Source of the DNA: Candidatus Heimdallarchaeum aukensis
GTDB lineage: Archaea > Asgardarchaeota > Heimdallarchaeia > Heimdallarchaeales > Heimdallarchaeaceae
Direction: 5' to 3'
Assembly (NCBI GenBank): GCA_021513695.1
Contig: CP084166.1
Location: 928,001-992,000 of the forward strand
Length of the DNA stretch: 64,000 nucleotides
The position numbers and the translations under genes were made by a program. The number at the start of each line of letters is the position of its first letter. Within the stretch, counting starts at the first letter, position 1. Shown here piece by piece: positions 10,342 to 33,583 of the stretch. The notes under the pieces were generated by a model. The model was not told the DNA's origin, did not search any database, and saw only the letters and a list, made by a program, of their open reading frames with translations.

Positions 10342-13300
10342 ATTTTCACACTACTTAGTTCAGCTTAAACCTCGTACTTGCTTGCAGAAGCACCTAGCAC
10401 GTAGTAATTTTCACACTACTTAGTTCAGCTTAAACCTTTCGATAATGATGGTGTTAGTGGTGAAGTGCAAAATTTTCACACTACTTAGTTCAGCTTAAAC
10501 AATCTATCAAGTGTCTCATTTTTTACGTTTCCTAGATTTTCACACTACTTAGTTCAGCTTAAACAATAACGTTTGAACATTGTTCTCGAATTCTTCATAA
10601 ATTTTCACACTACTTAGTTCAGCTTAAACAGTTGATGAAGGTGTGACAAAGTGTGACACTTCGATATTTTCACACTACTTAGTTCAGCTTAAACATTCTA
10701 CTTTTTTCTCAATCAATTTACAAGTTAGAGCGTCATTTTCACACTACTTAGTTCAGCTTAAACAGAACTAGGATCAGTCTCGGTCCATTCAGAAACTCGA
10801 TTTTCACACTACTTAGTTCAGCTTAAACTCCTAAAATAATAACTGATCCTAAGAATCCTGATAAGATTTTCACACTACTTAGTTCAGCTTAAACCCAGAG
10901 TGAGAACGGGGTTATAGGTCAATAATAAAGAAATTTTCACACTACTTAGTTCAGCTTAAACTTTGTTTTGATTTTTCTTTCTTTCAGGATAGCATCAATT
11001 TTCACACTACTTAGTTCAGCTTAAACAAATGGCTAAAAGAACCACAAGAACTTCAAGAAAATAATTTTCACACTACTTAGTTCAGCTTAAACTTTACATT
11101 TATATAACTTCCCCAGAAGATTATATATAATTTTCACACTACTTAGTTCAGCTTAAACCAGCAATGTTGGCACATCTCCCCACTCTACTTTCTCATTTTC
11201 ACACTACTTAGTTCAGCTTAAACATTACTCTTTTTTCTTTACAAAACATTTATATATTATATTTTCACACTACTTAGTTCAGCTTAAACGTTATATTAAG
11301 TGTTAAATAGTTCTCTTTTCCTTCTTATTTTCACACTACTTAGTTCAGCTTAAACGTAAAAAAATGAGTAATTCAGAAGAACATTTTCACACTACTTAGT
11401 TCAGCTTAAACTGAAAACCTTATAGGCTGGCGTGAATACGCAAACCTAATTTTCACACTACTTAGTTCAGCTTAAACACGTTTCCAAGTAAATCTGTTAC
11501 TATTTCAAATTTATTTTCACACTACTTAGTTCAGCTTAAACTGATTTACGTTACCCTCATGTTTGTTATGTTTATTTATTTTCACACTACTTAGTTCAGC
11601 TTAAACGAATTTACTTTACACAATGATCGTGCTGATACTGTTTTATTTTCACACTACTTAGTTCAGCTTAAACACATTGCTTGATATTGGAATTTTATAT
11701 CTTAATATATTTTCACACTACTTAGTTCAGCTTAAACCTGACTTTTTTGGAGAATTTGGTTTCGCTGATAGTAATTTTCACACTACTTAGTTCAGCTTAA
11801 ACTAGAAAATTGTATTCTTCAAACTATACGTATAGATATTCCATTTTCACACTACTTAGTTCAGCTTAAACCTTAAATTATCTTCAAACCAATCAGAATA
11901 ATAAAGTTCATATTTTCACACTACTTAGTTCAGCTTAAACATAAATATCGCTATTTCTCCTTTCTTAACTGTTCTTAATTTTCACACTACTTAGTTCAGC
12001 TTAAACCATAATCTATCATAAAAAAGTCTCCTATATCATAAGTATTTTCACACTACTTAGTTCAGCTTAAACACTATTTTTCCACCTTCTCTTTCTTCCC
12101 ATTCTCTCTTATTTTCACACTACTTAGTTCAGCTTAAACTTTGTACTTCACTGTGCTTAATATCTCTACTTATACTATTTTCACACTACTTAGTTCAGCT
12201 TAAACTTTATCACCCCTCATATATTTATTATACTTCCTAAAATTTTCACACTACTTAGTTCAGCTTAAACCGTACACCCATTCCTTAGGTGTCCAGTCTA
12301 ATACTTATTTTCACACTACTTAGTTCAGCTTAAACTCACCTATATATATGATGTTCTAACACATAAAAATCATTTTCACACTACTTAGTTCAGCTTAAAC
12401 CTGACTTTTTTGGAGAATTTGGTTTCGCTGATAGTAATTTTCACACTACTTAGTTCAGCTTAAACTAGAAAATTGTATTCTTCAAACTATACGTATAGAT
12501 ATTCCATTTTCACACTACTTAGTTCAGCTTAAACCTTAAATTATCTTCAAACCAATCAGAATAATAAAGTTCATATTTTCACACTACTTAGTTCAGCTTA
12601 AACATAAATATCGCTATTTCTCCTTTCTTAACTGTTCTTAATTTTCACACTACTTAGTTCAGCTTAAACCATAATCTATCATAAAAAAGTCTCCTATATC
12701 ATAAGTATTTTCACACTACTTAGTTCAGCTTAAACACTATTTTTCCACCTTCTCTTTCTTCCCATTCTCTCTTATTTTCACACTACTTAGTTCAGCTTAA
12801 ACTTTGTACTTCACTGTGCTTAATATCTCTACTTATACTATTTTCACACTACTTAGTTCAGCTTAAACTTTATCACCCCTCATATATTTATTATACTTCC
12901 TAAAATTTTCACACTACTTAGTTCAGCTTAAACCGTACACCCATTCCTTAGGTGTCCAGTCTAATACTTATTTTCACACTACTTAGTTCAGCTTAAACTC
13001 ACCTATATATATGATGTTCTAACACATAAAAATCATTTTCACACTACTTAGTTCAGCTTAAACCTCATAACAAATGGATAAAGACTATTGAAATCAAGAA
13101 TTTTCACACTACTTAGTTCAGCTTAAACCAATTATTATCGCAACAGCCATCTCAAGATCACCTTATTTTCACACTACTTAGTTCAGCTTAAACGTTTTTG
13201 AATAACAGTCTGTGAAGAGAGAGAAGCAAATTTTCACACTACTTAGTTCAGCTTAAACGTCTTATTTCGTTAAAATCTTCAACAATAGCTTGTTGATTTT

Positions 13301-16300
13301 CACACTACTTAGTTCAGCTTAAACACTTTAGACGTGAAAAATTGGTTAATGGTTTTAGGTGATTTTCACACTACTTAGTTCAGCTTAAACGTAAAGAGAA
13401 AAGAAGAAAGAAAAAGAACGATAAAAGAATTTTCACACTACTTAGTTCAGCTTAAACGAGATATTGCAACATTTTGCTACAAAAATATCTAAAAAATTTT
13501 CACACTACTTAGTTCAGCTTAAACTTTGAAGTATCTGTGATGTCTTTTGTGACTACTCCTGATTTTCACACTACTTAGTTCAGCTTAAACCTTACAGAGG
13601 GAGAATATGCGGGACAATATATTATTACATTTTCACACTACTTAGTTCAGCTTAAACATAGAAGAAGAGCTCATTACAACTTTCCTTTTCCGTGATTTTC
13701 ACACTACTTAGTTCAGCTTAAACAAGCGTCAGTAGCACCTACAAGCGGGACATTCACAAGATTTTCACACTACTTAGTTCAGCTTAAACTCTATTTTATA
13801 TACTTTCTCTAATTCTAAACTTCTACTATTTTCACACTACTTAGTTCAGCTTAAACAGTAGAAATGAAGGGGGGGTTAGGAGCTAGAAAAAATTTTCACA
13901 CTACTTAGTTCAGCTTAAACCAATTCTGTTAATTTGTTTATTTCTTCCCATCTTTCATTTTCACACTACTTAGTTCAGCTTAAACGATAAATGGTACAAT
14001 CGTTTGAACCCTTTTAGAAGAAATTTTCACACTACTTAGTTCAGCTTAAACAAGGTTATCGCCTTTACATTTAGGGTTCTCACAAGTAATTTTCACACTA
14101 CTTAGTTCAGCTTAAACTATTTATGTAAAAGTCCTCTTCATCTATTATTAAACTATTTTCACACTACTTAGTTCAGCTTAAACACTATAACTTTAAGCAC
14201 TTGTTTTACTATATCGAAAAATTTTCACACTACTTAGTTCAGCTTAAACAGTCCGTTCTCGTTTCTTATTTCTTCGTCATCGGTTCTAATTTTCACACTA
14301 CTTAGTTCAGCTTAAACATGATTTTGTATAGTTTCCTCTCTTTATAAATGAAAATTTTCACACTACTTAGTTCAGCTTAAACTCAGCGTTTTGTAGTTCT
14401 ATTTTTCGTAAGTCGTCATATTTTCACACTACTTAGTTCAGCTTAAACCATTTCTCCACCTCTTTTTCATTTCTACTTGTTCTAATTTTCACACTACTTA
14501 GTTCAGCTTAAACTTGCTCTCTAAATATATTGCATACATTCCTTTTCTGATTTTCACACTACTTAGTTCAGCTTAAACTGAACAAACACTCACAATCTTA
14601 TCTAATCTTTCAAACGTATTTTCACACTACTTAGTTCAGCTTAAACAAACTGAAGTCATGTCAAAGTTAGAAGCCCAACTATATTTTCACACTACTTAGT
14701 TCAGCTTAAACGAGCTTTTACTGAAGCAGAACTAAAAAGAAATACCCCAAATTTTCACACTACTTAGTTCAGCTTAAACCATTGAATTCCTCTTTCTTCC
14801 TCTGCACAATAGTGAATTTTCACACTACTTAGTTCAGCTTAAACACGGTGCTCTGAAATGATGGAGTTTGAACAAAAATATTTTCACACTACTTAGTTCA
14901 GCTTAAACGTACAATTATGTTAAATATAGAAGAATAAAAAGGAATTTTCACACTACTTAGTTCAGCTTAAACGATAAAAATGGTAGAAGAGCATAAGAAG
15001 AATGAGCTTAATTTTCACACTACTTAGTTCAGCTTAAACTCTATCCTCCTTTTTTTTGGTTTGCAGTTTATACAAGAATTTTCACACTACTTAGTTCAGC
15101 TTAAACTTCATAGAACTTGATGTTAGGGTTAGGAAAAACCTCATTTTCACACTACTTAGTTCAGCTTAAACTGTAGCTTTGAAAGTTTATCATAGTTATG
15201 TGAGAATTATTTTCACACTACTTAGTTCAGCTTAAACAGATGAAATTTCCGAATTAGTTACTTTATTTCCGTCTGATTTTCACACTACTTAGTTCAGCTT
15301 AAACATTGGAGCTCTTCCCTTGACAATACAAATATTACAAATTTTCACACTACTTAGTTCAGCTTAAACGAACGATTACAGTATAGAACAGACGAATATT
15401 ATTATATTTTCACACTACTTAGTTCAGCTTAAACATCAGCAACTCTTTGCTGGTTCTCAAGAGCTTTTTGATTTTCACACTACTTAGTTCAGCTTAAACG
15501 TGAAAAGTCTCTTGTGTAGGTATATCGTGCTGCGTATTTTCACACTACTTAGTTCAGCTTAAACAGGTTCTCACTTTGGACAAAAGAAGCAAGTTTAGAC
15601 GAATTTTCACACTACTTAGTTCAGCTTAAACTTTCTCCTGAAAGAAGATCGTATGGTAACGAATACGTATTTTCACACTACTTAGTTCAGCTTAAACTCT
15701 ACCACAATGAAGATCATGAGAAGAAACCCACACATTTTCACACTACTTAGTTCAGCTTAAACATTTTTTTCACCCATAATCATTTCCACCCCTCTTTGAT
15801 TTTCACACTACTTAGTTCAGCTTAAACTCAAGGTCAAAATGGGGAAAAAGGTCGAACTATGGTATTTTCACACTACTTAGTTCAGCTTAAACAACGCTTG
15901 TTTTGGGGTTTCACACCCCAAAATCTTATTTTCACACTACTTAGTTCAGCTTAAACTCTGCTTTATCTTCTTCTTTTTCACAATCTCTATGAATTTTCAC
16001 ACTACTTAGTTCAGCTTAAACTTTGCACCTATTATATTTTAAGAGTAAAGAATATAATTTTCACACTACTTAGTTCAGCTTAAACCAGAGAAAGACGCGG
16101 GTTCAATTTCGTATAAGTAAGTAATTTTCACACTACTTAGTTCAGCTTAAACTATCTTCTTTATCTCTTTTTCTACTAACTCATTCTTATTTTCACACTA
16201 CTTAGTTCAGCTTAAACTAGATAAAGGAAGTTTAGATAAAGCGATACAAGAATTGCTAAATTTTCACACTACTTAGTTCAGCTTAAACAAGCGAGTTCAG

Positions 16301-16420
16301 TATCTTCTTTTTCCTCATAGACCTTAATTTTCACACTACTTAGTTCAGCTTAAACATTTATTCCTGCTATACGCAATAGACTTGAAAACGTATTTTCACA
16401 CTACTTAGTTCAGCTTAAAC
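10342..16420 (-). CRISPR. CRISPR array 1: 93 repeats and 92 spacers, of which 82 are unique. The repeat is ATTTTCACACTACTTAGTTCAGCTTAAAC on the + strand, the reverse complement of the array-2 repeat. Spacers are 27-43 nt, mostly 35-38. It is transcribed on the minus strand from the leader at 16421-16535.
   Basis: Perfectly conserved 29-nt direct repeats with a ~65-bp period, counted by reading through the array. Orientation was inferred from the conserved leader and from identity to the array-2 repeat. Confidence 0.97.
11738..13063. repeat. Tandem segmental duplication inside array 1. A block of 10 spacer+repeat units (11738-12400) is repeated, apparently identically, at 12401-13063 (663 bp per copy).
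   Basis: Spacers ctgacttttttggagaatttggtttcgctgatagta .. tcacctatatatatgatgttctaacacataaaaatc occur twice in the same order. Confidence 0.9.
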
Positions 16421-16535
16421 GAAGTTTATTTTCTTTTCTAGCTATATTTTTCTCTCGTTTTGTCACTCACCTTCCTGGTCGACCTCCAATAAGGTATTAA
16501 CTTTATAAATATTGACCAGATACATAAACGTTTAC
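16421..16535 (-). promoter_or_regulatory. CRISPR leader of array 1 (minus-strand orientation). It is ~95% identical to the array-2 leader and contains a TATA-like TTTATAAAG and a GGAGGTCGACCAGGAAGGTGAGTGACAAAA block.
   Basis: The reverse complement of 16421-16535 aligns almost base-for-base with 28858-28971, including the junction ..AAAATAAACTTC|GTTTAAG. Confidence 0.8.
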
Positions 16536-16569
16536 CTTATAAACAATGACTAGTACCATTAAATTTGCT

Positions 16570-18075
16570 TTATTTTTTTGCTATTTTCTCTGCAATTACA
16601 GGATGTTTTTCGTTTACTGCATACCAGAATTTTGCCTTTCCTTTTAAATTTGGTTTTATTATTATCCATCCCTTTTTTTCCATATCTACTAGGATTCTTG
16701 GTTTATTCATTTTGAATTGATTTATGTTTATTTTTTTATGATCATGGTATTTATTTTCTTTTTGCATCCATTCATTTATTTTCCTGAAGCTCCCTGCAGC
16801 TAATCCACCTATCAAGATTGACCCATCCATACAGAGTTTGTATTCTTTTGGTTTTTCCAGTACTGACATGTATTTATCTATCATAAAGTCTAAAATTATT
16901 TCATGTTCTCCCTCTGGCCTTTCGAACATTTTTTCTTTTGTTCCTTCTTTAATTATTTTATTTTTTAGTTTGTCTAGTTGACTATTTTTTTCAAGAAGCA
17001 ACCTATTTTTTTCATGTGGGTCCCATAAATTTATTTTCTCAATTAATATTTGTTCTAAGTTTTGATACTCTCTTTCAATTACTAATTTTGTACTTATTTT
17101 CTTGAATATTTTTCTCTGGTAATTTTGTGGCAGGTAGTATGATCTTCTTCCTATAGAGTGATATAGAATTGGATTTAGGGTATTAACTATATAGTTTACT
17201 AGAGCTATTTTTTCTTCCATGTTTAGCTCCGAAAAGATATTTTCTTCTATTATTGATACTATTCTTTGTATTAGAGTTTTAATCATGAAAGCTGTTAGAA
17301 TAGCTTTTTTTACTCTCTTTTTGAATAATTCATTTTTCTTTTTGTAATGTACTATAGCATAAGTATCAATTCCGAGGGATAAAACGTCTATTTTTTCCTT
17401 TGAGCTATATATCTTTTCTATGTTTTTTTCTTCTAACTTTTGAAAATGAACACTAGGTAATTCAATTATTGAGATGACATTTGAAGATTCTAAATAAATA
17501 TTACTAAATTCTTTAAAGAATGCTCTAAGCAAACAAAATTTTACCTGTTCATTTTTCTTTTTTTTGCCTTTTTCATTTGTAAATATTTTTATTATTTCCC
17601 TTCGTAAATTTTCTAAACTCTCTTCTTCCAGAATTTTTTCACTTAAAATTACTTTCTTTTCTACTTCAGCTATTAATGATGGATAAATGTTTATCTTTTT
17701 TAATCCATTTACGATTTTAACTACTGTTCTTGGTTCATTCCAATAAACAGTTCTTGTTTCAATTGGAATAAGCGGTCTTAAAGGCACTCTTCTAAAAAAT
17801 AAATATTTTTTAGCGTAATAGTACAGATATGAATCATTAGTCAATTTCAGAAAAAGACTTGAGTAGTATGGAATGAAAATGTCGAACTTTTTTCTACCTT
17901 TTCTTATTACCATTTTTATTCTTTTTTTGAACTCTGTTTCTGATTTAAGGAAAGAGAGTTCTTTTCTAATCTTTTTTGAATAAAGGATTTCTGGAATGGC
18001 ATAAAACTGATGGAAAGAGATTTTTATTGTATTCATTTTATTCTCCCTAATACCATTTTTGAAGAGTAGTATCAT
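16570..18075 (-). CDS. Hypothetical protein (501 aa) with no recognisable motifs. It is co-oriented with the downstream leader of array 1 and overlaps the upstream tandem-Lrp-like gene.
   Basis: A long clean ORF. It has a 29-nt overlap with 18047..19525, which suggests an operon. Its stop is 35 bp from the leader. Confidence 0.6.
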   Translation of the reverse strand: MILLFKNGIRENKMNTIKISFHQFYAIPEILYSKKIRKELSFLKSETEFKKRIKMVIRKGRKKFDIFIPYYSSLFLKLTNDSYLYYYAKKYLFFRRVPLRPLIPIETRTVYWNEPRTVVKIVNGLKKINIYPSLIAEVEKKVILSEKILEEESLENLRREIIKIFTNEKGKKKKNEQVKFCLLRAFFKEFSNIYLESSNVISIIELPSVHFQKLEEKNIEKIYSSKEKIDVLSLGIDTYAIVHYKKKNELFKKRVKKAILTAFMIKTLIQRIVSIIEENIFSELNMEEKIALVNYIVNTLNPILYHSIGRRSYYLPQNYQRKIFKKISTKLVIEREYQNLEQILIEKINLWDPHEKNRLLLEKNSQLDKLKNKIIKEGTKEKMFERPEGEHEIILDFMIDKYMSVLEKPKEYKLCMDGSILIGGLAAGSFRKINEWMQKENKYHDHKKININQFKMNKPRILVDMEKKGWIIIKPNLKGKAKFWYAVNEKHPVIAEKIAKK

Positions 18076-19525: not shown

Positions 19526-19724
19526 CCAAGTTTAAATTTATTGTCAGTTTAAATTTTTTTTGTAATACTGACCTTGAACTATTGTCCAAAATAGACAAAG
19601 CTTATCCTTTTAGTTTTATTCTATTTCAAGCCTTCTAAGTAGATAGTTTTTAAATTACTTCACAGACATTTTCGATTTTTTGTTGTCCAGAGATGTATTG
19701 TCACAATTAAAAAGAGGTGACAAA

Positions 19725-20745: not shown

Positions 20746-20850
20746 ATTGTATTTTTTTGTTTAAATTTTACAATTAATTTTTGAAAAAACAACCTTTAAA
20801 ATATTTTTTTCTTTCTGTTTTACCAATAAAACTTAATTATTGGTGTTCCA

Positions 20851-23785: not shown

Positions 23786-23791
23786 TAATAG

Positions 23792-24553: not shown

Positions 24554-26990
24554 AAATCAGATAAACATTTTTTCTCACCCTAATAAAAATATTTTAGAAC
24601 ATTTAAGTGAGACAGAAAGAGAAATTCTAAATATCCTTGAAAAACTACAGCCCAATTTTTCAATCAAAAAAAACATTATTATCGAAATCGCTAGAATTTT
24701 AGCTTTAACACATGATATTGGAAAATGCACAATCTTTTTTCAAGAATATCTTCATTCAAACGAAGAAAATAACTTCAAAAAATTGGGAGAATATCAAAGT
24801 TCAAAACTTCACCACCATGGACTAATCTCTGCAGTTTTTACCTATTATACACTAAAGAAACTTTTAAATTCAAATAATGAGCAGTTCTATGACCTGAATA
24901 GTGGATATAAAGACCTATTACCTCATATAGGCTTTTTAACAACAAAAAAACATCATGGTAATTTAGGAAATTTTTATGATGAGATTATTATAAACAGAAC
25001 AAGTGAAGAAAAGATTAGACAGCAACTAGAAAATTTCCATCCCCAATTCGAAAATGTTGTCGAATTCATAAGAAATAAAATTAATATAACAATTTCATTT
25101 AATGAATTTTCAGAATCCTTTGGAGATTTAATTGATGAATTAGCTTTCAGTGATGAACTATTATTGAACTATTATGAAAATAGTAGAGATTGTGAACTTT
25201 ATCTATTTACTTTATTTTTACATTCAATCTTAACAGATGCAGATAAAACTTCTGCTATTGGTGTCTCTAAGCCTATTCTTCCATTTATTTCTTCTAACAA
25301 AATTATCAAAAACAGGAAAAAAATAATCCAGAAAAAAGGAAAAAAGACATATTTAGATAACTTAAGAGAGAATATTTACAAAGAAGTAATTGCAAAGATA
25401 GAAAAAACACCTTTAGATAACAAAATATTTACATTAACAGCTCCTACAGGTTCAGGAAAAACTCTCACAGTTTTTGAAGCAGCATTTAGATTGAAAGATA
25501 AAATTTTAAGGAGAACTAATATAGAAATGAAAATTATTTATTGCCTTCCATTTCTCAGCATCATTGATCAAAATGCTCACATTATTAACCAACTGCTAGA
25601 TCCTGACTCAGTTAAGTTTCTTCCTTCAACTCAACTACTAATTCATCATTACTTGGCAGAAGTTCAATACAGCTCTTATGAAGAAGATTATACCTTTGAT
25701 GAAAGTAGATTCCTAATTGAGGATTGGCATTCTTCAGTTATTATTACAACCTTTATTCAGCTTTTTCATAGTATTTTTACCAATAGAAATAGCAAGATAA
25801 GGAAACATCACAATATACAAAATTCTATCATAATACTTGATGAAGTTCAAAACATTCCTCATAAGTATTGGTTATTGATCAGGGAAGTTTTTCAAAGATT
25901 ATCAGAGATCGAGAATGTTTATATCATTTTTACAACAGCCACACAGCCTAAAATTTTTAGTTCAGAAGAGAAAGTTGTTGAATTACTTGAAAATAAGGAA
26001 AAATACTTTGAACAGTTAAGTAGAATTACTTTAGAACCAAAAATTGATAACAATATCACACTCAACGAGTTTATTTTAGAAATTAATGAGAAACTGCAAA
26101 AGAACAGTGACAAGGATATTCTAATTGTTGCGAATACAATCCGAGAAGCTCAAGAGATTTTTGACAGTATTAATTTTAAAAAAGATCATGATAAGTTATT
26201 TTTCCTTTCAAGTCAAATAATCCCTAGAAAGAGGAAAGAAAGAATTGAAGAAATAAAGAGAAAATTAGAAAAAGAAAAAGATAAAAGAGAGAGTAATGAA
26301 AAACGAATTATTTTAGTAACTACCCAATTAATTGAAGCAGGAGTAGATATCGATTTTGATATTGTAATAAGAGATTTAGGACCAATAGATTCTATAAATC
26401 AAGTAGCAGGAAGATGTAACAGAAACGGAGAAGAAGAAAAGGGAAAAACAATTGTTTATTCAGTCATTGACCAAAAAACAAAAAGATTATTTGCTTCATA
26501 CATTTATGACGGATTTATTTTAAGTAAAACGAAGGATGTTCTAAAAAACAAAAGAGTGATAGAAGAACAAGAATTCCTCAAAATCATTGACGATTATTAT
26601 TTAAGCATCGAAAAGACAGGGGACACAATAACCTCCACTAATATACTAGACTCTATCTTTAATTTAGAGTTTGATGAAATAGGTAAATTTAGCCTGATAG
26701 AAGAAAGAGCTGATCAAGTTCCTGTTTTTATTGAGATAGATAAAAAGGCAAAGGAAATTTGGGCAGAATATTTGGAAATATGGAATATTAAAGATTGGAA
26801 GAAAAGAAATGAGAAATTTATAAAAATCAAAAATGATCTCTATAGTAACTTAATTAACGTAGACAAGAAAAAAATCAAAACAATTGAGCAAATAAAGGGT
26901 TATTATTATATCGATTTTCAAAATGCTAGGAACTACTACGACAATGAAAAAGGTTTCATTGGGAAAGAAAAAGATGTTATTTTATTATAA
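24522..26990 (+). CDS. cas3: Cas3 with an N-terminal HD nuclease domain and a DExH helicase.
   Basis: HD motif LTHDIGK. Helicase motifs TAPTGSGKT, ILDEVQ, TATQP and VTTQLIEAGVDIDFD. 822 aa. Confidence 0.9.
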   Translation: MKMTNSSVSSENQINIFSHPNKNILEHLSETEREILNILEKLQPNFSIKKNIIIEIARILALTHDIGKCTIFFQEYLHSNEENNFKKLGEYQSSKLHHHGLISAVFTYYTLKKLLNSNNEQFYDLNSGYKDLLPHIGFLTTKKHHGNLGNFYDEIIINRTSEEKIRQQLENFHPQFENVVEFIRNKINITISFNEFSESFGDLIDELAFSDELLLNYYENSRDCELYLFTLFLHSILTDADKTSAIGVSKPILPFISSNKIIKNRKKIIQKKGKKTYLDNLRENIYKEVIAKIEKTPLDNKIFTLTAPTGSGKTLTVFEAAFRLKDKILRRTNIEMKIIYCLPFLSIIDQNAHIINQLLDPDSVKFLPSTQLLIHHYLAEVQYSSYEEDYTFDESRFLIEDWHSSVIITTFIQLFHSIFTNRNSKIRKHHNIQNSIIILDEVQNIPHKYWLLIREVFQRLSEIENVYIIFTTATQPKIFSSEEKVVELLENKEKYFEQLSRITLEPKIDNNITLNEFILEINEKLQKNSDKDILIVANTIREAQEIFDSINFKKDHDKLFFLSSQIIPRKRKERIEEIKRKLEKEKDKRESNEKRIILVTTQLIEAGVDIDFDIVIRDLGPIDSINQVAGRCNRNGEEEKGKTIVYSVIDQKTKRLFASYIYDGFILSKTKDVLKNKRVIEEQEFLKIIDDYYLSIEKTGDTITSTNILDSIFNLEFDEIGKFSLIEERADQVPVFIEIDKKAKEIWAEYLEIWNIKDWKKRNEKFIKIKNDLYSNLINVDKKKIKTIEQIKGYYYIDFQNARNYYDNEKGFIGKEKDVILL

Positions 26991-27002
26991 CGAAATGATG
27001 GA

Positions 27003-27031
27003 GTTCAAGCTAAACTAAGTAGTATGAAAAT
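27003..27031 (+). repeat. Solitary degenerate CRISPR repeat (26/29 identical: GTTCAAGCTAAACTAAGTAGTATGAAAAT) in the cas3-cas4 intergenic spacer. It is in the same orientation as the cas genes and array 2.
   Basis: Direct comparison with the array repeat GTTTAAGCTGAACTAAGTAGTGTGAAAAT shows 3 mismatches. No second repeat lies nearby. Confidence 0.8.
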
Positions 27032-27073
27032 TAGAGGTAGAAGTAATGGTATTAAATTCTTGGTGAAATTGTA

Positions 27074-27604
27074 ATGGTGGAGTTAAATCATATTAGCATT
27101 AAGAATACTGATTTTGCAGTAACTGGAGTAATGGTTCAATATTTATTTTCATGTAAAAGAGAATTGTGGTTTTTTACCAAAAAAATTGATTTCAACAAAG
27201 AGGATCAGAACATTCAAATTGGCAAAATAATACATGAAACAAGCTATAAACGAAATAAAAAAGAGTTTGACTTAGGTTTTGTAAAATTTGACTTAATTGA
27301 AACAAAAAACAGGATAATAATTTCTGAAATAAAAAAATCTTCAAAACTTTTGGAACCTGCAAAAATGCAACTTTTGTATTATGTTTACATTTTAAGTAAA
27401 ATAACTGAAAAAGAAGTAGAAGGAGAAATTAGAATTCCAAAAGAGAGAAAAAAAGTAAAGATTCAATTGCAAAACGAAGAAGAAAAATTAATTCAAAAAG
27501 CTTTGAGAGAGATTAAAGAAATTTCCTTACTGGAAAGACCTCCCAAAGCAGAAAAAAAATTTTATTGTAAGAATTGCGCTTATTACATTTTTTGCTGGGT
27601 TTGA
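27074..27604 (+). CDS. cas4: Cas4 (RecB-like nuclease with a C-terminal Cys cluster).
   Basis: 176 aa. An N-terminal Cys (FSCKREL), a C-terminal CKNCAYYIFC, and a RecB-like core (IGKIIHE). Confidence 0.85.
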   Translation: MVELNHISIKNTDFAVTGVMVQYLFSCKRELWFFTKKIDFNKEDQNIQIGKIIHETSYKRNKKEFDLGFVKFDLIETKNRIIISEIKKSSKLLEPAKMQLLYYVYILSKITEKEVEGEIRIPKERKKVKIQLQNEEEKLIQKALREIKEISLLERPPKAEKKFYCKNCAYYIFCWV

Positions 27605-28591
27605 GTGAAAAAAATGAAAGATTCTATTTACATTACAAAGGAAGGAGTAATTTACAGAAAAGATAATACTATTGTTTTTCAAAATCAAGAACAAAAGCAT
27701 ACTTTACCTATCGAAGCAGTGAAAGATATATATTGTATTGGCAAAGTAACTATAAGATCTGGAGCAGCTTATCAACTAATGGAAAAAAGGATTCCTGTAC
27801 ATTTTTTCGGAAAATATGGACACTATAGAGGAACATTACAACCAAAACAAGATCTAATCTCTGGAGAAGTAATAGTAAAACAAGTTCAACATTATACTGA
27901 TTACATAAAAAGAATAAAAATTGCAAAAGAGATGTTTAAAGGAATAAAACACAACATTCTCTGGGTTCTAAAATATTACAAATCAAAAAGAGATATAGAA
28001 GATGTAGTTGAAAAAATTGAACATGTTAATATTCAAGAAGAAATATTAAAAATAAATACATTAAGAAGTTTAGAAGGTCAAATATGGGAACTTTTCTATC
28101 AAGCTGCTGATACAATTTGTCCTTCATGGGGTTTTAGAAAAAGGACTAGAAGGCCTCCTTTAGATGAAGGAAATGCACTAATATCTTATGGAAACTCAGT
28201 TCTATATGGAAAAACAATTTCTGAAATATTCAAAACTTATCTTCATCCTGCAATTTCGTTTATACACGAACCAAGTGAAAGAAGGTACTCTTTAGCCTTA
28301 GATCTAGCTGATATTTTCAAACCAGTAATAGTTTTTAGAACAGTCTTCAGGCTTATAAATCAGAAAATAATTTCAAAGAAAGATTTTGAAAAAGAAGTAG
28401 GAGTCCAAATTTCAGAAAAAGGAAAAAAAGTATTTATCACAGAATTAGAAAAAACATTCACAACTACAGTAAGACATCCAAATCTGAAAAGAAATACCTC
28501 ATACCAGTTTTTGATAAGACTTGAAGGACTAAAAATAATGAAACATGTTCTAGGAGATAAAAAATATGAAAGCTTTAAAGCATGGTGGTAG
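27605..28591 (+). CDS. cas1: Cas1 integrase.
   Basis: 328 aa, sharing the N-terminal Cas1 fold signature (IYITKEGVIYRKDNTIVF). It is adjacent to and overlaps cas2. The likely start is the ATG at 27614. Confidence 0.9.
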   Translation: MKKMKDSIYITKEGVIYRKDNTIVFQNQEQKHTLPIEAVKDIYCIGKVTIRSGAAYQLMEKRIPVHFFGKYGHYRGTLQPKQDLISGEVIVKQVQHYTDYIKRIKIAKEMFKGIKHNILWVLKYYKSKRDIEDVVEKIEHVNIQEEILKINTLRSLEGQIWELFYQAADTICPSWGFRKRTRRPPLDEGNALISYGNSVLYGKTISEIFKTYLHPAISFIHEPSERRYSLALDLADIFKPVIVFRTVFRLINQKIISKKDFEKEVGVQISEKGKKVFITELEKTFTTTVRHPNLKRNTSYQFLIRLEGLKIMKHVLGDKKYESFKAWW

Positions 28592-28857
28592 AGATATACG
28601 TGATAATCGTTTATGACGTGGGAGAAGAAAGAGTAAATAGAATACATAAATTCTTGAAAGCATATTTAACATGGACACAAAATTCAGTATTTGAAGGAAA
28701 AATAACAAAAGCAACATTAGCTCAAATAAAAACAGGAATAAAAAGCATAATAAAAAAAGAAGTCGATTCAATAAAAATATTCAAAATAAAAGGAGAACAA
28801 TGGATGAATATTGAAATAATGGGAGTAGAAAAAAATAAGTTTCAGAATATAATTTAG
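28582..28857 (+). CDS. cas2: Cas2.
   Basis: 91 aa with the N-terminal VIIVYDV motif. It lies immediately upstream of the leader of array 2. Confidence 0.9.
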   Translation: MVVEIYVIIVYDVGEERVNRIHKFLKAYLTWTQNSVFEGKITKATLAQIKTGIKSIIKKEVDSIKIFKIKGEQWMNIEIMGVEKNKFQNII

Positions 28858-28971
28858 GTAAATCGTAAGAATCAGGTCGACATTTATAAAGATGATACAT
28901 TATTGGAGGTCGACCAGGAAGGTGAGTGACAAAAGGAAAGAAAAATATAACTAGAAAAGAAAATAAACTTC
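28858..28971 (+). promoter_or_regulatory. CRISPR leader of array 2 (TATA-like TTTATAAAG at ~28883). It is nearly identical to the array-1 leader.
   Basis: See the array-1 leader. It sits directly between the cas2 stop and the first repeat. Confidence 0.8.
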
Positions 28972-31900
28972 GTTTAAGCTGAACTAAGTAGTGTGAAAAT
29001 TTCTTTTGTTCTTTGGAGGAGGACAACCTTCAACGAGTTTAAGCTGAACTAAGTAGTGTGAAAATCAGTCTGGGTATATTTTATGCCCCTCAATATTTTG
29101 AGTTTAAGCTGAACTAAGTAGTGTGAAAATTGCTGGCTGGACTGGGCATAATTTCCAGAAATCTCTGTTTAAGCTGAACTAAGTAGTGTGAAAATAGTAA
29201 AATAGCTTTTATTTATTCCGTAGTAATATATGGTTTAAGCTGAACTAAGTAGTGTGAAAATCGCTATTGTAGTCGAGTTAGAAGATGGAGAGATTGAGTT
29301 TAAGCTGAACTAAGTAGTGTGAAAATAAATATATTGTGATGAATTGGATAAAAGAACTAAAAGTTTAAGCTGAACTAAGTAGTGTGAAAATAAACCAGAA
29401 GGAATGACTTTCATTCCTGCTACAGGTTTAAGCTGAACTAAGTAGTGTGAAAATTAATCAGAATAAAATGCTCATAATCATTGGTATAATAGTTTAAGCT
29501 GAACTAAGTAGTGTGAAAATGCAAAGCAATGAAAGGAGTGTTTTGTCTGGTGAGGTCGTTTAAGCTGAACTAAGTAGTGTGAAAATCAATCAGATTTGAG
29601 GGACAAAATAGTCCCGTTGGGACGTTTAAGCTGAACTAAGTAGTGTGAAAATACTGAAGAACAAGAAAAGAATATAAAAAGAACCAAGGTTTAAGCTGAA
29701 CTAAGTAGTGTGAAAATTAATATATCTATCGACTTGAACAAATTAGTTGAAGAGGGTTTAAGCTGAACTAAGTAGTGTGAAAATGGTAAATCCCCCAACA
29801 ATCCTGAAAGTGTTAAATTTGTTTAAGCTGAACTAAGTAGTGTGAAAATATTGTTCTTTTTTCAAATCATCTATTTTTTTTGCTCGTTTAAGCTGAACTA
29901 AGTAGTGTGAAAATTACAATTGACAGTAGTCACACACAAACCATTTAGGTGTTTAAGCTGAACTAAGTAGTGTGAAAATAAAATTCTTCGTGTGTCATAT
30001 AAAAGGCATCATCAGTTTAAGCTGAACTAAGTAGTGTGAAAATAGATCAGAGAGACTTGGGTAGAGTTAGTGAGATCTATGTTTAAGCTGAACTAAGTAG
30101 TGTGAAAATTACATATTTTTGAATAATTGAGACATGCATATGACGTTTAAGCTGAACTAAGTAGTGTGAAAATACAGCTCTCAACTGATAAGAGCGTTCT
30201 TTTTCATTGTTTAAGCTGAACTAAGTAGTGTGAAAATTTGTCAAAGTGTTTGTATAAGTGTCAATATAATCTGTTTAAGCTGAACTAAGTAGTGTGAAAA
30301 TATGTCTTTAGAGACTTGTTGAAGAGCAGGATTGTCAGGTTTAAGCTGAACTAAGTAGTGTGAAAATCAAGCATTTCTGCGATAACGACACCAGAACCAT
30401 TAAGTTTAAGCTGAACTAAGTAGTGTGAAAATTAAATGTGGTCGTGTATCGTTATATGGTGCTCTGAAATGTTTAAGCTGAACTAAGTAGTGTGAAAATA
30501 TATCTCCAGAGTGCCAAATTTCAACATTTGACACGTTTAAGCTGAACTAAGTAGTGTGAAAATCCAATTAATTAAGCCGCTGTTTCAAAAGGTGGTTCAG
30601 TTTAAGCTGAACTAAGTAGTGTGAAAATTTCGATGGATCCATAAAGGTAAATTAGGATCCCAAAAGTTTAAGCTGAACTAAGTAGTGTGAAAATAAAAAG
30701 CCAAGAGATGGATTGATGAACAAAAAAACCGTTTAAGCTGAACTAAGTAGTGTGAAAATCAGTCTGGATAGAGTTTGTGCCCATTAATATTCTGAATTGT
30801 TTAAGCTGAACTAAGTAGTGTGAAAATAGAGTAGGATTGTCAGATTGATCCATAAGGTATAGAAGTTTAAGCTGAACTAAGTAGTGTGAAAATGGTGACG
30901 CCACAAGCGAGGCATTCCCAAGCTCAATAGTTTAAGCTGAACTAAGTAGTGTGAAAATGGATTAAAAAATATGTCTCCTCTCGCTCGTTACGGGTTTAAG
31001 CTGAACTAAGTAGTGTGAAAATAATATCTTTAGATACCTGTTGAAGAGCGGAGTTGGTTTAAGCTGAACTAAGTAGTGTGAAAATCCAAAATTCTCGACT
31101 GCCTCTAAAGCAAATGAGAAAGTTTAAGCTGAACTAAGTAGTGTGAAAATTTTTTTTTCTGTCTGTTATTTCTTCTACTTCTTCTGTTTAAGCTGAACTA
31201 AGTAGTGTGAAAATTTATGATATGCGAACGTTTGCATGTTTGCGAATACAAGTTTAAGCTGAACTAAGTAGTGTGAAAATAGAAAACGTTTGGCTCGAAT
31301 GGATTGGTTTCTATGTCGTTTAAGCTGAACTAAGTAGTGTGAAAATTTGCTAAACCCGCCGCATAATCTTTTTTCTTTTATTTTGTTTAAGCTGAACTAA
31401 GTAGTGTGAAAATTAACCTGCAGAAATATCTTGTAAAATCTTGAATTCAACCTTGTTTAAGCTGAACTAAGTAGTGTGAAAATTAGTTTTGATTTGTAAA
31501 AGACGGATATCCACTTGTTGTGCTGTTTAAGCTGAACTAAGTAGTGTGAAAATATCAACACGTGGGTTTCTATCCAAATCTAATCCTCTGTTGTTTAAGC
31601 TGAACTAAGTAGTGTGAAAATAGCGATATAAAGAAGTTATCCTTTTCAGTATAATAAGGTTTAAGCTGAACTAAGTAGTGTGAAAATAAATTTCTAAAAA
31701 TATTGAAAGGTCAAAATCAAGATTGTTTAAGCTGAACTAAGTAGTGTGAAAATCTAACATGTGTAAGATTCATTGGGCCAATCCAAATTGTTTAAGCTGA
31801 ACTAAGTAGTGTGAAAATCTAAACACAATTTGCATGATGCCATGCTTGTTTTTTGTTTAAGCTGAACTAAGTAGTGTGAAAATGTTGGTTGTGTATAGTG

Positions 31901-33583
31901 TAAATAGATTTTTCTGATTGGGTTTAAGCTGAACTAAGTAGTGTGAAAATTTCTACTTCAAAGAATGAGCACCAATAGTTAAACCAGTTTAAGCTGAACT
32001 AAGTAGTGTGAAAATGCTTCATCTGCTAAAAGTTGTAGTTGTTCATAAAGGTTTAAGCTGAACTAAGTAGTGTGAAAATTGTGCTACATATATACACACC
32101 TATATCCTGTTTATCGTTTAAGCTGAACTAAGTAGTGTGAAAATATCCTGATAGGTGAGTCCTACAGGAGAAAGAAAAAGTTTAAGCTGAACTAAGTAGT
32201 GTGAAAATATCCTGATAGGTGAGTCCTACAGGAGAAAGAAAAAGTTTAAGCTGAACTAAGTAGTGTGAAAATCCCAATAGCATCCTCTTTTATCTGGGGC
32301 TTGGTTTATGTTTAAGCTGAACTAAGTAGTGTGAAAATCTGTGATTTCTGCGGAAATAAACATGTGACGGAAAGTTTAAGCTGAACTAAGTAGTGTGAAA
32401 ATGCAACTCTTTCCGTCCAGCGCACTAAAGCTGCTTTTGGGTTTAAGCTGAACTAAGTAGTGTGAAAATGTTTTTCATGGTAGCTTGCTACCAAAAATTT
32501 ACTTAAAAGTTTAAGCTGAACTAAGTAGTGTGAAAATGAGACTGTTAATAGCGAAGTCAGATTCCTCAAAAGGTGTTTAAGCTGAACTAAGTAGTGTGAA
32601 AATTTGTCTTTACACAGGGCATTCTCAGTTCTGGAGGAAGTTTAAGCTGAACTAAGTAGTGTGAAAATCACATAAACAAATTAGAAAGCGAAATAACCAC
32701 AGTTGTTTAAGCTGAACTAAGTAGTGTGAAAATCAATATTCTTCATCTTCTTCTAAATCATACAATAGCGTTTAAGCTGAACTAAGTAGTGTGAAAATAG
32801 AAAAGAGGAACCGTTGTTCTTAAAGGTAAAAATCGTTTAAGCTGAACTAAGTAGTGTGAAAATAAAGAGTATTGAACTCCTGGTTCAAAACTGATTTTGC
32901 AGTGTTTAAGCTGAACTAAGTAGTGTGAAAATTAATTGCTTTTTTGTCTGCATGACTTGGTAATTCAAAGTTTAAGCTGAACTAAGTAGTGTGAAAATTT
33001 CAAGGTGAGACCAACGATCCTGGTTACTTCGGTTGTTTAAGCTGAACTAAGTAGTGTGAAAATAATATGTAATTAAATAAGTTTTTATTGTGGTAAAATG
33101 TTTAAGCTGAACTAAGTAGTGTGAAAATACATTAAGAAAACGCTTACCATCTAAAGAAACAATCGTTTAAGCTGAACTAAGTAGTGTGAAAATTCATAAG
33201 TTGACCAATATTCAGAAATTACATAACGTTTAAGCTGAACTAAGTAGTGTGAAAATGAAAGCGTTTAGAATTGGTGGCGGTTCTGGTTGCAGGTTTAAGC
33301 TGAACTAAGTAGTGTGAAAATTACTGGGCAATGGAAAAAAGCTGTTGCCGCATTCAAGTTTAAGCTGAACTAAGTAGTGTGAAAATTAACTCACTCGCTC
33401 ACCCTCAGAGAGAGCCACAAACGTTTAAGCTGAACTAAGTAGTGTGAAAATTAATTTACGTCATGACTATGATGCGACCCCCAACGAGGTTTAAGCTGAA
33501 CTAAGTAGTGTGAAAATATTTGACTACTAGGTTTAGGTTTGAATATGAACCAGAGTTTAAGCTGAACTAAGTAGTGTGAAAAA
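28972..33583 (+). CRISPR. CRISPR array 2: 71 repeats and 70 spacers, of which 69 are unique. The repeat is GTTTAAGCTGAACTAAGTAGTGTGAAAAT. The terminal repeat is degenerate (..GAAAAA).
   Basis: 29-nt repeats with a ~65-bp period. The leader-distal last repeat has one mismatch. One spacer (atcctgataggtgagtcctacaggagaaagaaaaa) is present twice in tandem (32145-32179 and 32209-32243). Confidence 0.97.

What the first reader, a model, noticed from the sequence alone, without database searches (positions are those of the whole stretch)
10342..33583. Two inverted CRISPR arrays with duplicated leaders flank a single I-B operon, with 162 spacers in total
Array 1 has 92 spacers and is transcribed on the minus strand. 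Array 2 has 70 spacers and is transcribed on the plus strand. They use the same repeat and ~95% identical leaders (16421-16535 vs 28858-28971) that point outward from the cas genes. Array 1 is separated from cas1-cas2 by ~12 kb and two intervening genes, so adaptation at that leader must act in trans. The leader duplication points to an inversion or duplication that created the second array.
Basis: seen in the sequence. Interest (0 to 1): 0.5.

Follow-up and report, generated by a model that had tools for sequence, protein, structure and literature searches.

The report
Two-array type I-B CRISPR locus, Heimdallarchaeum
This is an ordinary, already published type I-B CRISPR-Cas locus of the Asgard archaeon Candidatus Heimdallarchaeum aukensis, in which two large arrays with related leaders point away from one cas operon.

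Summary
There are 93 identical 29-nt repeats (92 spacers) at 10342-16420 on the minus strand and 71 repeats (70 spacers) at 28972-33583 on the plus strand. Between them lies one complete I-B operon (cas6-cas8b-cas7-cas5-cas3-cas4-cas1-cas2). The leaders match 64/67 next to the repeat and 91/100 overall.

Only 151 spacers are unique: array 1 has a perfect 663-bp tandem duplication of 10 spacers, and array 2 has one doubled spacer.

The window comes from the circular genome of Ca. Heimdallarchaeum aukensis (Wu et al. 2022). That paper's spacer-length tables for 'C2' (n=92) and 'C5' (n=70) match the two arrays exactly. Two arrays with similar leaders around one I-B operon are also known from Haloferax volcanii. 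Adaptation in trans is how Cas1-Cas2 always works.

A recent duplication is not supported. The arrays share no spacers, and the promoter half of leader 2 matches leader 2 of an 85%-identical relative better than it matches leader 1.

Three side findings are more interesting:
- The two "intervening genes" are a conserved CRISPR-associated pair. One is a tandem Lrp/AsnC-like regulator; its ~500-aa partner is of unknown fold.
- A solitary repeat between cas3 and cas4 is conserved in a relative.
- The palindrome GGTCGACC occurs in the window only in the two leaders.

The parts
10342..16420 (-). CRISPR array 1: 93 identical 29-nt repeats and 92 spacers (82 distinct), transcribed leftwards away from the cas operon. 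It is labelled 'C2' in Wu et al. 2022.
   Evidence: repeat scan; spacers; the paper's C2 spacer-length distribution has n=92, including one 27-nt and one 42-nt spacer, and matches exactly.
11709..13034 (-). Perfect tandem duplication inside array 1 (period 663 bp; spacers 52-61 = 62-71). It is either unequal recombination between repeats or an assembly artefact.
16421..16569 (-). Leader 1, the intergenic stretch between the 501-aa gene and the first repeat. The part conserved with leader 2 is 16421-16535. It holds a TATA-like TTTATAAA at 16502-16509 and the palindrome GGTCGACC at 16477-16484.
   Evidence: Contig L004 has the same leader with one mismatch.
16570..18075 (-). 501-aa protein of unknown fold. 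It is the conserved partner of the regulator gene and is co-directional with array 1.
   Evidence: no family match; only one homologue found by the word-indexed search; 35-36% identity to the L007 498-aa protein and 29% to the L009 496-aa protein; single-sequence model unusable (pLDDT 37).
18047..19525 (-). 492-aa protein with an N-terminal helical domain and two tandem Lrp/AsnC-like modules (winged helix plus alpha/beta domain). It is a putative transcription regulator, transcribed divergently from cas6.
   Evidence: HTH hits; rare family, 30 hits among 1.84 billion representatives. AF2 model with pLDDT 87 and pTM 0.83; best PDB match is NirDL (4ch7, E 2e-7), then Lrp/AsnC regulators.
20023..20745 (+). 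cas6
   Evidence: 100% identical to Ca. Heimdallarchaeum aukensis Cas6 (P0030).
20851..22863 (+). cas8b, the signature gene of subtype I-B.
   Evidence: PF09484, E 4e-96. PADLOC Cas8b, E 3e-90.
22847..23785 (+). cas7 (Csh2)
   Evidence: TIGR02590, 281 bits against a cut-off of 171.55.
23792..24553 (+). cas5b
   Evidence: TIGR02592, 119.8 bits against a cut-off of 97.
24522..26990 (+). cas3 (HD nuclease plus helicase)
27003..27031 (+). Solitary degenerate repeat, GTTCAAGCTAAACTAAGTAGTATGAAAAT (3 mismatches to the consensus). It lies 12 nt after the cas3 stop and 42 nt before the cas4 start.
   Evidence: the next best match in the window has 10 mismatches; conserved at the same place in L005, with 1 mismatch to the consensus.
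27074..27604 (+). cas4
27605..28591 (+). cas1 (I-B / HMARI type)
   Evidence: TIGR03641, 408.7 bits against a cut-off of 304.1.
28582..28857 (+). cas2
   Evidence: 97% identical to a Heimdallarchaeaceae MAG Cas2.
28858..28971 (+). Leader 2. It holds TTTATAAA at 28883-28890 and GGTCGACC at 28908-28915.
28972..33583 (+). CRISPR array 2: 71 repeats and 70 spacers (69 distinct). The last repeat is mutated. It is labelled 'C5' in Wu et al. 2022.
34762..36246 (+). 494-aa full-length paralogue of the 492-aa regulator, lying just beyond the trailer of array 2.
   Evidence: 31% identity over the whole length, E 4e-67..

Best explanation
This is a standard type I-B CRISPR-Cas locus of the Asgard archaeon Candidatus Heimdallarchaeum aukensis.

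How it most likely works:
- One cas operon supplies Cas6 and Cascade (Cas8b-Cas7-Cas5), Cas3, and the adaptation proteins Cas4-Cas1-Cas2.
- Two arrays flank the operon. Each has its own leader and is transcribed outward from an archaeal TATA-type promoter about 85 nt upstream of the first repeat.
- Cas6 cuts both transcripts, and both arrays feed the same Cascade.
- Cas1-Cas2 diffuses and inserts spacers at either leader-repeat junction.

The two leaders are old paralogues. Selection for promoter and integration signals keeps them alike, and gene conversion has probably homogenised the ~67 nt next to the identical first repeat.

Because the arrays are inverted relative to each other, recombination between them would invert the cas operon rather than delete it.

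Shown: anatomy, gene identities, leader homology, source organism.
Inferred: promoter use, Cas6 processing, adaptation at both leaders, gene conversion.
For: Leader homology, with TTTATAAA the same 82 nt from the first repeat in both leaders, comes. GGTCGACC occurs only in the two leaders of the 64-kb window (2 found, 0.02 expected). It is retained in the leaders of L004 and L005.

The source is established by Cas6 being 100% identical to Ca. H. aukensis Cas6 on a 3.08-Mb contig. The paper's C2 (n=92) and C5 (n=70) spacer-length tables match exactly.

Signs of use:
- All repeats but one are identical.
- A 93.6-99.2%-identical strain contig (L004) has the same leader 1 but four different leader-proximal spacers.
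- Array 2 holds two pairs of spacers taken from the same site of diverged protein-coding targets. Their differences fall mostly at every third base, and one member of a pair sits at position 2 from the leader.

The promoter half groups by position: window leader 2 and L005 leader 2 agree at 47/48 from GGTCGAC to GGAAGG. The repeat-proximal part groups by genome: window leaders 1 and 2 agree at 64/67, while window leader 2 and L005 leader 2 agree at only about two thirds of the last 49 nt.

Precedent: in Haloferax volcanii I-B, arrays P1 and P2 flank the only cas cluster and the leaders are highly similar (PMC3460438).
Against: - No transcript or crRNA data exist here. The promoter is only a TATA-like match, and the sigma-70 scan is irrelevant for an archaeon.
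- No protospacer was found for any spacer in GenBank phages or in four IMG/VR pattern scans. The PAM and current activity therefore cannot be shown. The genome paper reports the same lack of hits.
- Two strains of a related locus that are 97.7% identical (L007/L008) share no spacers even at the trailer-like end. The spacer differences seen in L004 therefore do not prove leader-end acquisition.
- The gene-conversion inference rests on a single outgroup leader (L005).
Confidence: 0.85

Rival explanations
1. A recent segmental duplication or inversion copied leader plus array. Array 1 would then be a young copy of array 2, or the reverse.
For: The leaders match 64/67 next to the repeat, and the repeats are identical in both arrays. 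A related I-B locus has its upstream array in the opposite orientation relative to the same gene pair, so at least one inversion occurred in this family.
Against: None of the 151 distinct spacers is shared between the arrays, including at the trailer ends. The promoter half of leader 2 shares its leader-2-specific bases with leader 2 of a relative that is only 85.5% identical overall, so the leader 1/leader 2 differences are old. No cas2 remnant or other shared flank lies upstream of leader 1.
Confidence: 0.12
2. Array 1 is an orphan or decaying array, or belongs to a separate system. Only array 2, next to cas1-cas2, would be in use.
For: Array 1 lies 11 kb from cas1-cas2 and is separated from the operon by two non-cas genes. 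The genome paper numbers the two arrays as different systems, C2 and C5. Array 1 contains a 10-spacer duplication and one aberrant 27-nt spacer.
Against: All 93 repeats are perfect and identical to those of array 2. Leader 1 keeps the TATA-like box, the GGTCGACC palindrome and the leader-repeat junction. A closely related strain has the same leader but different leader-proximal spacers. The window holds no second cas operon.
Confidence: 0.05
3. The two-array layout, or part of it, is an assembly artefact of a repeat-rich region.
For: The genome was assembled from short reads with nanopore scaffolding of amplified DNA (sheet text). A perfect 663-bp tandem duplication is the kind of feature that assemblers can create.
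Against: Independent contigs from other samples reproduce both unique junctions. L004 carries the gene pair, leader 1 and the array. L005 carries cas3, the solitary repeat, cas4, cas1, cas2, leader 2 and the array. Spacers are otherwise unique, so the arrays cannot be collapsed copies of each other. Adjacent duplicated spacers also occur in the unrelated assembly L007.
Confidence: 0.03

Closest known systems
CRISPR-Cas systems 'C2' and 'C5' of Candidatus Heimdallarchaeum aukensis (Wu et al. 2022, Nat Microbiol, PMC8813620)
   Same: This is the same DNA. Cas6 is 100% identical to the H. aukensis protein on the 3.08-Mb contig. The published spacer-length distributions for C2 (n=92) and C5 (n=70) equal those of arrays 1 and 2. 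The paper also reports no spacer hits in IMG/VR or RefSeq viruses, as found here.
   Different: The terms 'leader', 'I-B' and 'type I' do not occur in the paper's main text. The held text does not mention the solitary repeat, the 10-spacer duplication or the conserved accessory gene pair either. It numbers the two arrays as separate systems, although the window holds only one cas operon between them.
Haloferax volcanii type I-B locus on pHV4, with arrays P1 and P2 flanking the only cas cluster (Fischer et al. 2012, PMC3460438)
   Same: It is an archaeal I-B system with one cas6-cas8b-cas7-cas5-cas3-cas4-cas1-cas2 set, an array on each side, near-identical repeats and highly similar leaders. 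The authors read those leaders as common ancestry. The repeats are likewise of the unstructured kind; here the repeat folds at -1.5 kcal/mol with z 0.08.
   Different: In Haloferax the two flanking arrays have the same orientation, which allows loss of the cas cluster by recombination between repeats. Here they are inverted, so recombination would invert the operon instead. The arrays here are much larger (92 and 70 spacers against 39 for P1 in strain DS2 and 11 for P2 in strain H119), and a two-gene accessory module sits between array 1 and cas6.
[quoted passage not shown] 2023, bioRxiv 10.1101/2023.03.03.530964; Li laboratory CreTA/CreR work)
   Same: The element at 27003-27031 is a repeat-like sequence in an intergenic gap of a type I cas operon, and it is conserved in a related locus. 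These are the criteria used in that survey.
   Different: It is a single repeat, not a pair around a pseudo-spacer. It lies between cas3 and cas4, whereas I-B elements are reported to be enriched around cas6. The sequence downstream has no seed match with any site in the window, including the cas6 upstream region.
Lrp/AsnC (FFRP) transcription regulators and the tandem Lrp/AsnC fold of NirDL
   Same: The model of the 492-aa protein has two [winged helix + alpha/beta] modules. Its best PDB matches are NirDL (E 2e-7), then archaeal Lrp/AsnC regulators such as PH1519 and ST1022.
   Different: It has an extra ~140-residue N-terminal helical domain. Sequence identity to these proteins is only 12-23%. 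No Lrp/AsnC Pfam model reaches threshold. The family is rare and lies mostly beside cas genes of Heimdall-group archaea.

Membership tests
[quoted passage not shown] | Signature large subunit Cas8b | tested here: met
   The ORF at 20851-22863 hits PF09484 Cas_TM1802 at E 4e-96 over the full length. It hits PADLOC Cas8b at E 2.6e-90 and TIGR02591 Csh1 at 122 bits against a cut-off of 104.
[quoted passage not shown] | Cas3 with HD nuclease and helicase, plus Cas5, Cas7 and Cas6 | tested here: met
   Cas3 hits TIGR01587 (helicase core) and TIGR01596 (HD domain). Cas7 hits TIGR02590 (Csh2), Cas5 hits TIGR02592 and Cas6 hits TIGR01877. All score above their cut-offs.
[quoted passage not shown] | Adaptation module cas4-cas1-cas2 with a I-B type Cas1 | tested here: met
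   Cas1 hits TIGR03641 (cas1_HMARI) at 408.7 bits against a cut-off of 304.1. Cas4 hits TIGR00372 and Cas2 hits TIGR01573.
[quoted passage not shown] | crRNA-guided, PAM-dependent DNA interference | not testable with these tools
   No protospacer was found, so not even the PAM can be inferred.
Functional CRISPR array with leader | Regularly spaced identical repeats with unique spacers of uniform length | tested here: met
   There are 93 and 71 repeats. Spacers are 27-42 nt with mode 36, and 151 of 162 are unique.
Functional CRISPR array with leader | A conserved AT-rich leader with a promoter at one end, in the same orientation relative to the repeat in each array | tested here: inconclusive
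   The leaders are homologous and keep TTTATAAA 82 nt from the first repeat. Both are conserved in relatives. Promoter activity itself is only inferred.
Functional CRISPR array with leader | Polarised spacer acquisition at the leader end | tested here: inconclusive
   L004 has the same leader 1 but different proximal spacers. However, strains L007 and L008 also differ at a trailer-like end.
CreR/CreA-type regulatory mini-array (considered for the solitary repeat at 27003-27031) | Two degenerate repeats flanking a pseudo-spacer | tested here: not met
   Only one repeat-like sequence is present. No second copy with 11 or fewer mismatches lies nearby.
CreR/CreA-type regulatory mini-array (considered for the solitary repeat at 27003-27031) | Pseudo-spacer with a seed match to a promoter, flanked by a PAM | tested here: not met
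   No site in the window matches 11 or more of the first 12 nt. The best whole-length matches, 22-23 of 36, are at chance level. Targets elsewhere in the genome could not be searched.
CreR/CreA-type regulatory mini-array (considered for the solitary repeat at 27003-27031) | Position conserved in related loci | tested here: met
   L005 is 85.5% identical overall and has GTTTTAGCTGAACTAAGTAGTGTGAAAAT between cas3 and cas4. The more distant loci L001, L002 and L007 have little or no cas3-cas4 gap.
Lrp/AsnC-type transcription regulator (considered for the 492-aa protein) | Winged helix-turn-helix followed by an alpha/beta (RAM) domain | tested here: met
   The AF2 model (pLDDT 87) shows two such modules. 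Foldseek matches NirDL and Lrp/AsnC structures.
Lrp/AsnC-type transcription regulator (considered for the 492-aa protein) | Sequence membership in the Pfam or NCBIfam Lrp/AsnC families | tested here: not met
   Only generic HTH models hit (HTH_24 and HTH_Mga just above their cut-offs, the others below), and no AsnC or RAM model hits.

The most novel reading that the evidence does not exclude
The two 'intervening genes' may be a previously undescribed CRISPR-associated module of Heimdall-group Asgard archaea. It consists of a tandem Lrp/AsnC-like DNA-binding regulator with an N-terminal helical domain and a ~500-aa partner of unknown fold.

The pair sits divergently from the first effector gene of I-B and I-D loci, and at the head of two other type I loci. 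The regulator alone sits in a III-A locus. In this window a paralogue also lies beyond array 2.

Its likely role would be control of cas or array transcription, possibly through the GGTCGACC palindrome that in this window occurs only in the two leaders. In that case array 1 is the output of a regulator-array unit, not an array stranded far from cas1-cas2.
Probability: 0.3. Interest if true: 0.5.

Novelty: already known. Interest (0 to 1): 0.22.

Why it matters
The finding as stated adds little. The locus is in a published Asgard genome and was already counted array by array. Two arrays with related leaders around one I-B operon have been described since 2012.

What may be worth keeping for Asgard CRISPR biology are three points:
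- The inverted layout protects the cas operon from deletion by repeat recombination. This contrasts with Haloferax and with a related Heimdall locus.
- The two leaders show a mosaic pattern that suggests gene conversion. Such homogenisation can mislead age estimates of arrays.
- A rare regulator-plus-partner gene pair travels with CRISPR-Cas loci of several subtypes in this lineage. It is a candidate lineage-specific accessory module.

Tried and rejected
**Spacer targets**
- No self-targets were found in the window. The only notable hit is an 18-nt purine-rich run of spacers A1_58/A1_68 inside the 494-aa gene. It matches 21/37 with the seed unmatched, and I judged it chance.
- Neither array hit GenBank phages. 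The single E=0.4 hit to a Vibrio phage tail-fibre gene was dismissed.
- Four IMG/VR pattern scans found nothing. Two of them used wobble-masked patterns built from spacer pairs.
- I did not scan the paper's mobilome FASTA for spacers. Three window segments, tried on both strands, were absent from it.

**Relatives by DNA**
- The leader core and the repeat were both absent from the JGI metagenome scans. L004's leader differs by one base inside the leader-core pattern, which accounts for that pattern missing it. L004's repeat is identical to the query yet the repeat scan also found nothing, so that contig is apparently not in the scanned collection.
- The GTDB scan with Cas7 gave only 52-60% relatives without arrays.

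**Solitary repeat**
- A CreR-like target was searched in the window and not found.
- The hairpin idea was rejected. The repeat folds weakly (z 0.08), and the L005 variant breaks the predicted stem.
- The two solitary copies differ at 4 of 29 bases. That is about the same as the locus-wide 14.5% divergence, so no extra constraint can be claimed.

**Other tests**
- A shared GTGACAAAA-like motif between the leaders and the cas6 upstream region is not above chance.
- The flank of the L007 array shows no homology to the window's leader or trailer flanks.
- The sigma-70 promoter scan is irrelevant for an archaeon.
- Rfam found nothing in the window.
- The 501-aa protein has no Pfam, NCBIfam, PADLOC, PHROG or PDB-sequence match.
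- I could not locate the paper's 'HeimM1' island relative to this window.


Full report
**1.

A scan for the repeat and its reverse complement finds two arrays.
- Array 1 has 93 perfect copies of ATTTTCACACTACTTAGTTCAGCTTAAAC at 10342-16420.
- Array 2 has 71 copies of the complementary GTTTAAGCTGAACTAAGTAGTGTGAAAAT at 28972-33583. Only the last copy is altered (final T to A).

The total of 162 overstates the content, because only 151 spacers are distinct. Array-1 spacers 52-61 are repeated as 62-71, a perfect tandem duplication with a 663-bp period (11709-12371 = 12372-13034). Array-2 spacers 49 and 50 are identical. No spacer is shared between the arrays.

**2. The cas genes form one complete type I-B set**

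The order is cas6, cas8b, cas7 (Csh2), cas5b, cas3 (HD plus helicase), cas4, cas1 (HMARI type) and cas2, spanning 20023-28857. Strong matches in Pfam, NCBIfam and PADLOC support every gene. No second cas operon is present in the window.

**3. Leaders and direction of transcription**

The sequences upstream of the first repeat of each array align without doubt.

Both leaders keep TTTATAAA exactly 82 nt from the repeat (16502-16509 and 28883-28890). This is the expected form of an archaeal TATA box.

Both also keep the 8-bp palindrome GGTCGACC (16477-16484 and 28908-28915). It occurs nowhere else in the 64 kb, with 0.02 matches expected by chance.

Four things show that each array is read outward from the cas side:
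- the shared leader sits at the cas-proximal end of each array;
- the repeat has the same orientation relative to the leader in both arrays;
- the single degenerate repeat lies at the far end of array 2;
- the repeat has the GTTT...AAAT form typical of I-B repeats (this last point is from my own knowledge).

The sigma-70 scan is not relevant, because the organism is an archaeon. The repeat RNA is essentially unstructured (-1.5 kcal/mol, z 0.08), like other archaeal I-B repeats.

**4. Source and prior description**

The nearest Cas7 proteins in GTDB representative genomes are from Asgard MAGs, at 52-60% identity. Cas2 is 97% identical to a Candidatus Heimdallarchaeaceae MAG protein. Cas6 is 100% identical to the Cas6 of Candidatus Heimdallarchaeum aukensis, on a 3,081,793-bp contig. 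The window therefore comes from the circularised genome published by Wu et al. 2022 (PMC8813620).

That paper catalogues seven CRISPR-Cas systems, C1-C7. Its source data for Extended Data Fig. 5f give a spacer-length distribution for 'C2' in units of 1/92, including one 27-nt and one 42-nt spacer. The distribution for 'C5' is in units of 1/70. Summed, they reproduce my length counts exactly. Array 1 is thus the paper's C2 and array 2 its C5.

The terms 'leader', 'I-B' and 'type I' do not occur in the paper's main text. The paper reports no spacer matches in IMG/VR v3, RefSeq viruses or GTDB. That agrees with my own negative searches.

**5. Relatives and what they say about the leaders**

Three contigs from other samples carry the same repeat.
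- L004 (JGI 3300033150) is 99.2% identical over one part and 93.6% over the rest of window 20042-16189. It has the same two genes, leader 1 with one mismatch, and the array start. Its four leader-proximal spacers are absent from the window.
- L005 (Heimdallarchaeaceae MAG GCA_054387415.1) is 85.5% identical to 23546-29586. It carries cas7'-cas5-cas3-cas4-cas1-cas2, leader 2 and nine spacers, none shared.
- L006 is a 524-bp fragment with the start of leader 2.

Aligning the leaders gives a mosaic.
- In the promoter half, from the TATA region to GGAAGG, the window's leader 2 is almost identical to L005's leader 2 (47/48). It differs from the window's leader 1 at five positions.
- In the ~67 nt next to the repeat the pattern reverses. 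The two leaders of this genome differ at 3 positions. Over the last 49 nt, L005's leader 2 matches the window's at only about two thirds of positions.

The simplest reading is that the two leader types are older than the split between these lineages. The repeat-proximal part would then have been homogenised within the genome, by gene conversion seeded from the identical first repeat.

The alternative is faster drift of that part in the L005 lineage. I cannot exclude it without the L005 lineage's leader 1.

Either way, a recent duplication that created the second array is not supported. The absence of any shared spacer points the same way.

**6. Was there an inversion?**

A more distant I-B locus (L007/L008; Cas6 57% identical) has the same two accessory genes transcribed divergently from cas6. 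An array with a repeat differing at one base follows them. That array lies in the opposite orientation relative to the gene pair. In L008, the repeats nearest the genes are polymorphic, as expected of a trailer.

At least one inversion of the upstream array has therefore occurred in this family.

The layouts have different consequences. In Haloferax volcanii the two arrays flanking the only I-B cas cluster are in the same orientation, and this permits loss of the cas genes by recombination between repeats (PMC3460438). Here recombination between the inverted arrays would only flip the operon.

**7. Activity**

I cannot show which array is currently acquiring spacers. Evidence consistent with use of both:
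- The repeats are perfect throughout, apart from the terminal copy of array 2.
- L004 has different leader-proximal spacers behind the same leader 1.
- Array 2 holds two spacer pairs (2/28 and 21/32) taken from the same site of diverged targets. Their differences fall mostly at every third base: positions 9, 12, 14, 18, 24, 26, 33 for one pair and 3, 12, 15, 27, 29, 30 for the other. This indicates repeated sampling of evolving protein-coding invaders, with the newer copy near the leader.

One caution applies. L007 and L008 are 97.7% identical yet share no spacers even at the trailer-like end. Spacer differences between strains therefore do not prove polarised acquisition.

**8. The 'in trans' argument**

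Cas1-Cas2 acts as a free protein complex at any suitable leader-repeat junction. One adaptation module serving several arrays, even arrays on other replicons, is the norm; Haloferax has three arrays and one cas cluster. The 11.2-kb distance is of no mechanistic consequence.

**9. The two intervening genes are not bystanders**

*The 492-aa protein (18047-19525).* It has a full-length paralogue of 494 aa just beyond the trailer of array 2 (34762-36246; 31% identity, E 4e-67). The family is rare, with 30 hits among 1.84 billion representative proteins.

Its members lie in these contexts:

| Locus | Context |
|---|---|
| L007/L008 | beside a I-B operon |
| L010 | inside a III-A (Csm) locus |
| L011 | at the head of a type I operon |
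| L012 | at the head of an operon that includes a weak cas5 match |
| L017/L018 | divergent from cas10d of a I-D locus |
| L009 | no cas genes within 10 kb |
| L013-L016 | contigs too short to judge |

In most of these loci the gene is followed by a ~485-510-aa partner. The partner's homology to the window's 501-aa protein was tested only for L007 (35-36% identity) and L009 (29%).

An AlphaFold model built on 18 family members is confident (pLDDT 87, pTM 0.83). It shows an N-terminal helical domain followed by two [winged helix + alpha/beta] modules. Foldseek matches it best to NirDL, a tandem Lrp/AsnC fold (E 2e-7), and then to archaeal Lrp/AsnC regulators.

*The 501-aa partner.* It has no detectable family and no usable model.

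I infer that this is a lineage-specific CRISPR-associated regulator module. In this genome it is co-directional with array 1 and only 149 nt upstream of it. A role in array or cas transcription is a hypothesis, not a result.

**10. A solitary repeat inside the operon**

GTTCAAGCTAAACTAAGTAGTATGAAAAT lies at 27003-27031, between the cas3 stop and the cas4 start. It has 3 mismatches to the repeat, and the next best match anywhere else in the window has 10. L005 has GTTTTAGCTGAACTAAGTAGTGTGAAAAT at the same place, 19 nt before the cas4 start codon. The more distant loci have little or no cas3-cas4 gap.

Standalone repeat-like sequences are a known and widespread feature of type I loci (Shmakov et al. 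2023). This one departs from the described regulatory mini-arrays in three ways:
- it is single;
- it sits at the cas3-cas4 junction, not near cas6;
- the sequence downstream has no seed match in the window.

Two readings remain. It may be a Cas6 cleavage site that separates the adaptation mRNA from the effector mRNA. Or it may be a decaying relic. The two copies differ at 4 of 29 bases, about the locus-wide divergence, so conservation does not decide between them.

**11. Verdict**

The finding is real, but it is ordinary and already catalogued. Its interpretation is partly right about common ancestry of the leaders and a possible inversion. It is wrong in implying a recent duplication, and 'in trans' is trivially true.

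The side observations are new details within known kinds of system:
- the mosaic leader conservation;
- the GGTCGACC palindrome;
- the accessory gene pair;
- the solitary repeat;
- the 10-spacer duplication;
- a truncated surface-protein gene at the array-1 trailer.

Noticed in passing
window 16570-19525 (minus strand) and 34762-36246 (plus strand); loci L007-L012, L017 and L018: A rare ~490-aa tandem Lrp/AsnC-like protein, in most contexts examined followed by a ~485-510-aa gene of unknown family, sits beside cas genes of I-B, I-D, other type I and III-A loci of Heimdall-group archaea. The window has two paralogues of the regulator, one on each side of the locus. It looks like an undescribed CRISPR-associated module.
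   Followed up: partly
window 27003-27031; L005 3464-3492: A solitary degenerate CRISPR repeat lies between cas3 and cas4 and is conserved in an 85%-identical relative. No second repeat is present, and the downstream sequence has no target in the window. It could be a Cas6 processing site ahead of cas4-cas1-cas2, or a relic.
   Followed up: partly
window 16477-16484 and 28908-28915: The 8-bp palindrome GGTCGACC occurs only in the two leaders of the 64-kb window (0.02 expected). It starts 18 nt after the TATA-like box, about 57-64 nt upstream of the first repeat. It is kept in the leaders of L004 and L005 and is a candidate regulator or integration-host-factor site.
   Followed up: partly
window 11709-13034; 32145-32243; L007 11365-11465 and 11951-12053: Array 1 has a perfect 663-bp tandem duplication of ten spacers. 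Array 2 has one doubled spacer, and the unrelated assembly L007 has two doubled spacers. Repeat-mediated duplication seems frequent in these arrays, or else assemblers create it.
   Followed up: partly
window about 10100-10341 (minus strand): Directly at the trailer end of array 1 lies the 3' remnant of a surface-protein gene. It has aspartate-rich thrombospondin-type-3-like repeats, an in-frame stop, then a PGF-CTERM-like hydrophobic tail. No 5' part is present, which suggests that the CRISPR locus was inserted into or replaced part of that gene.
   Followed up: no
window 29066-29101 vs 30760-30798; 30302-30338 vs 31023-31056: Two pairs of array-2 spacers are diverged copies of the same protospacer site, with differences mostly at every third base. 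This indicates repeated acquisition from evolving variants of one coding target.
   Followed up: partly
window 11356-11382: One array-1 spacer is only 27 nt long, while all others are 34-42 nt. It probably arose by an internal deletion or an aberrant integration.
   Followed up: no
window 19526-20022: The 497-nt gap between the regulator gene and cas6 holds a 24-codon ORF (19726-19800) and a terminator-like hairpin with a T run (19855-19874). Several TTGTC...GACAA inverted repeats also occur there. No repeat-like element was found in the gap.
   Followed up: no
window 43335-44033: A 232-aa ORF has a weak integrase-core (rve_3) match, about 10 kb to the right of array 2.
   Followed up: no
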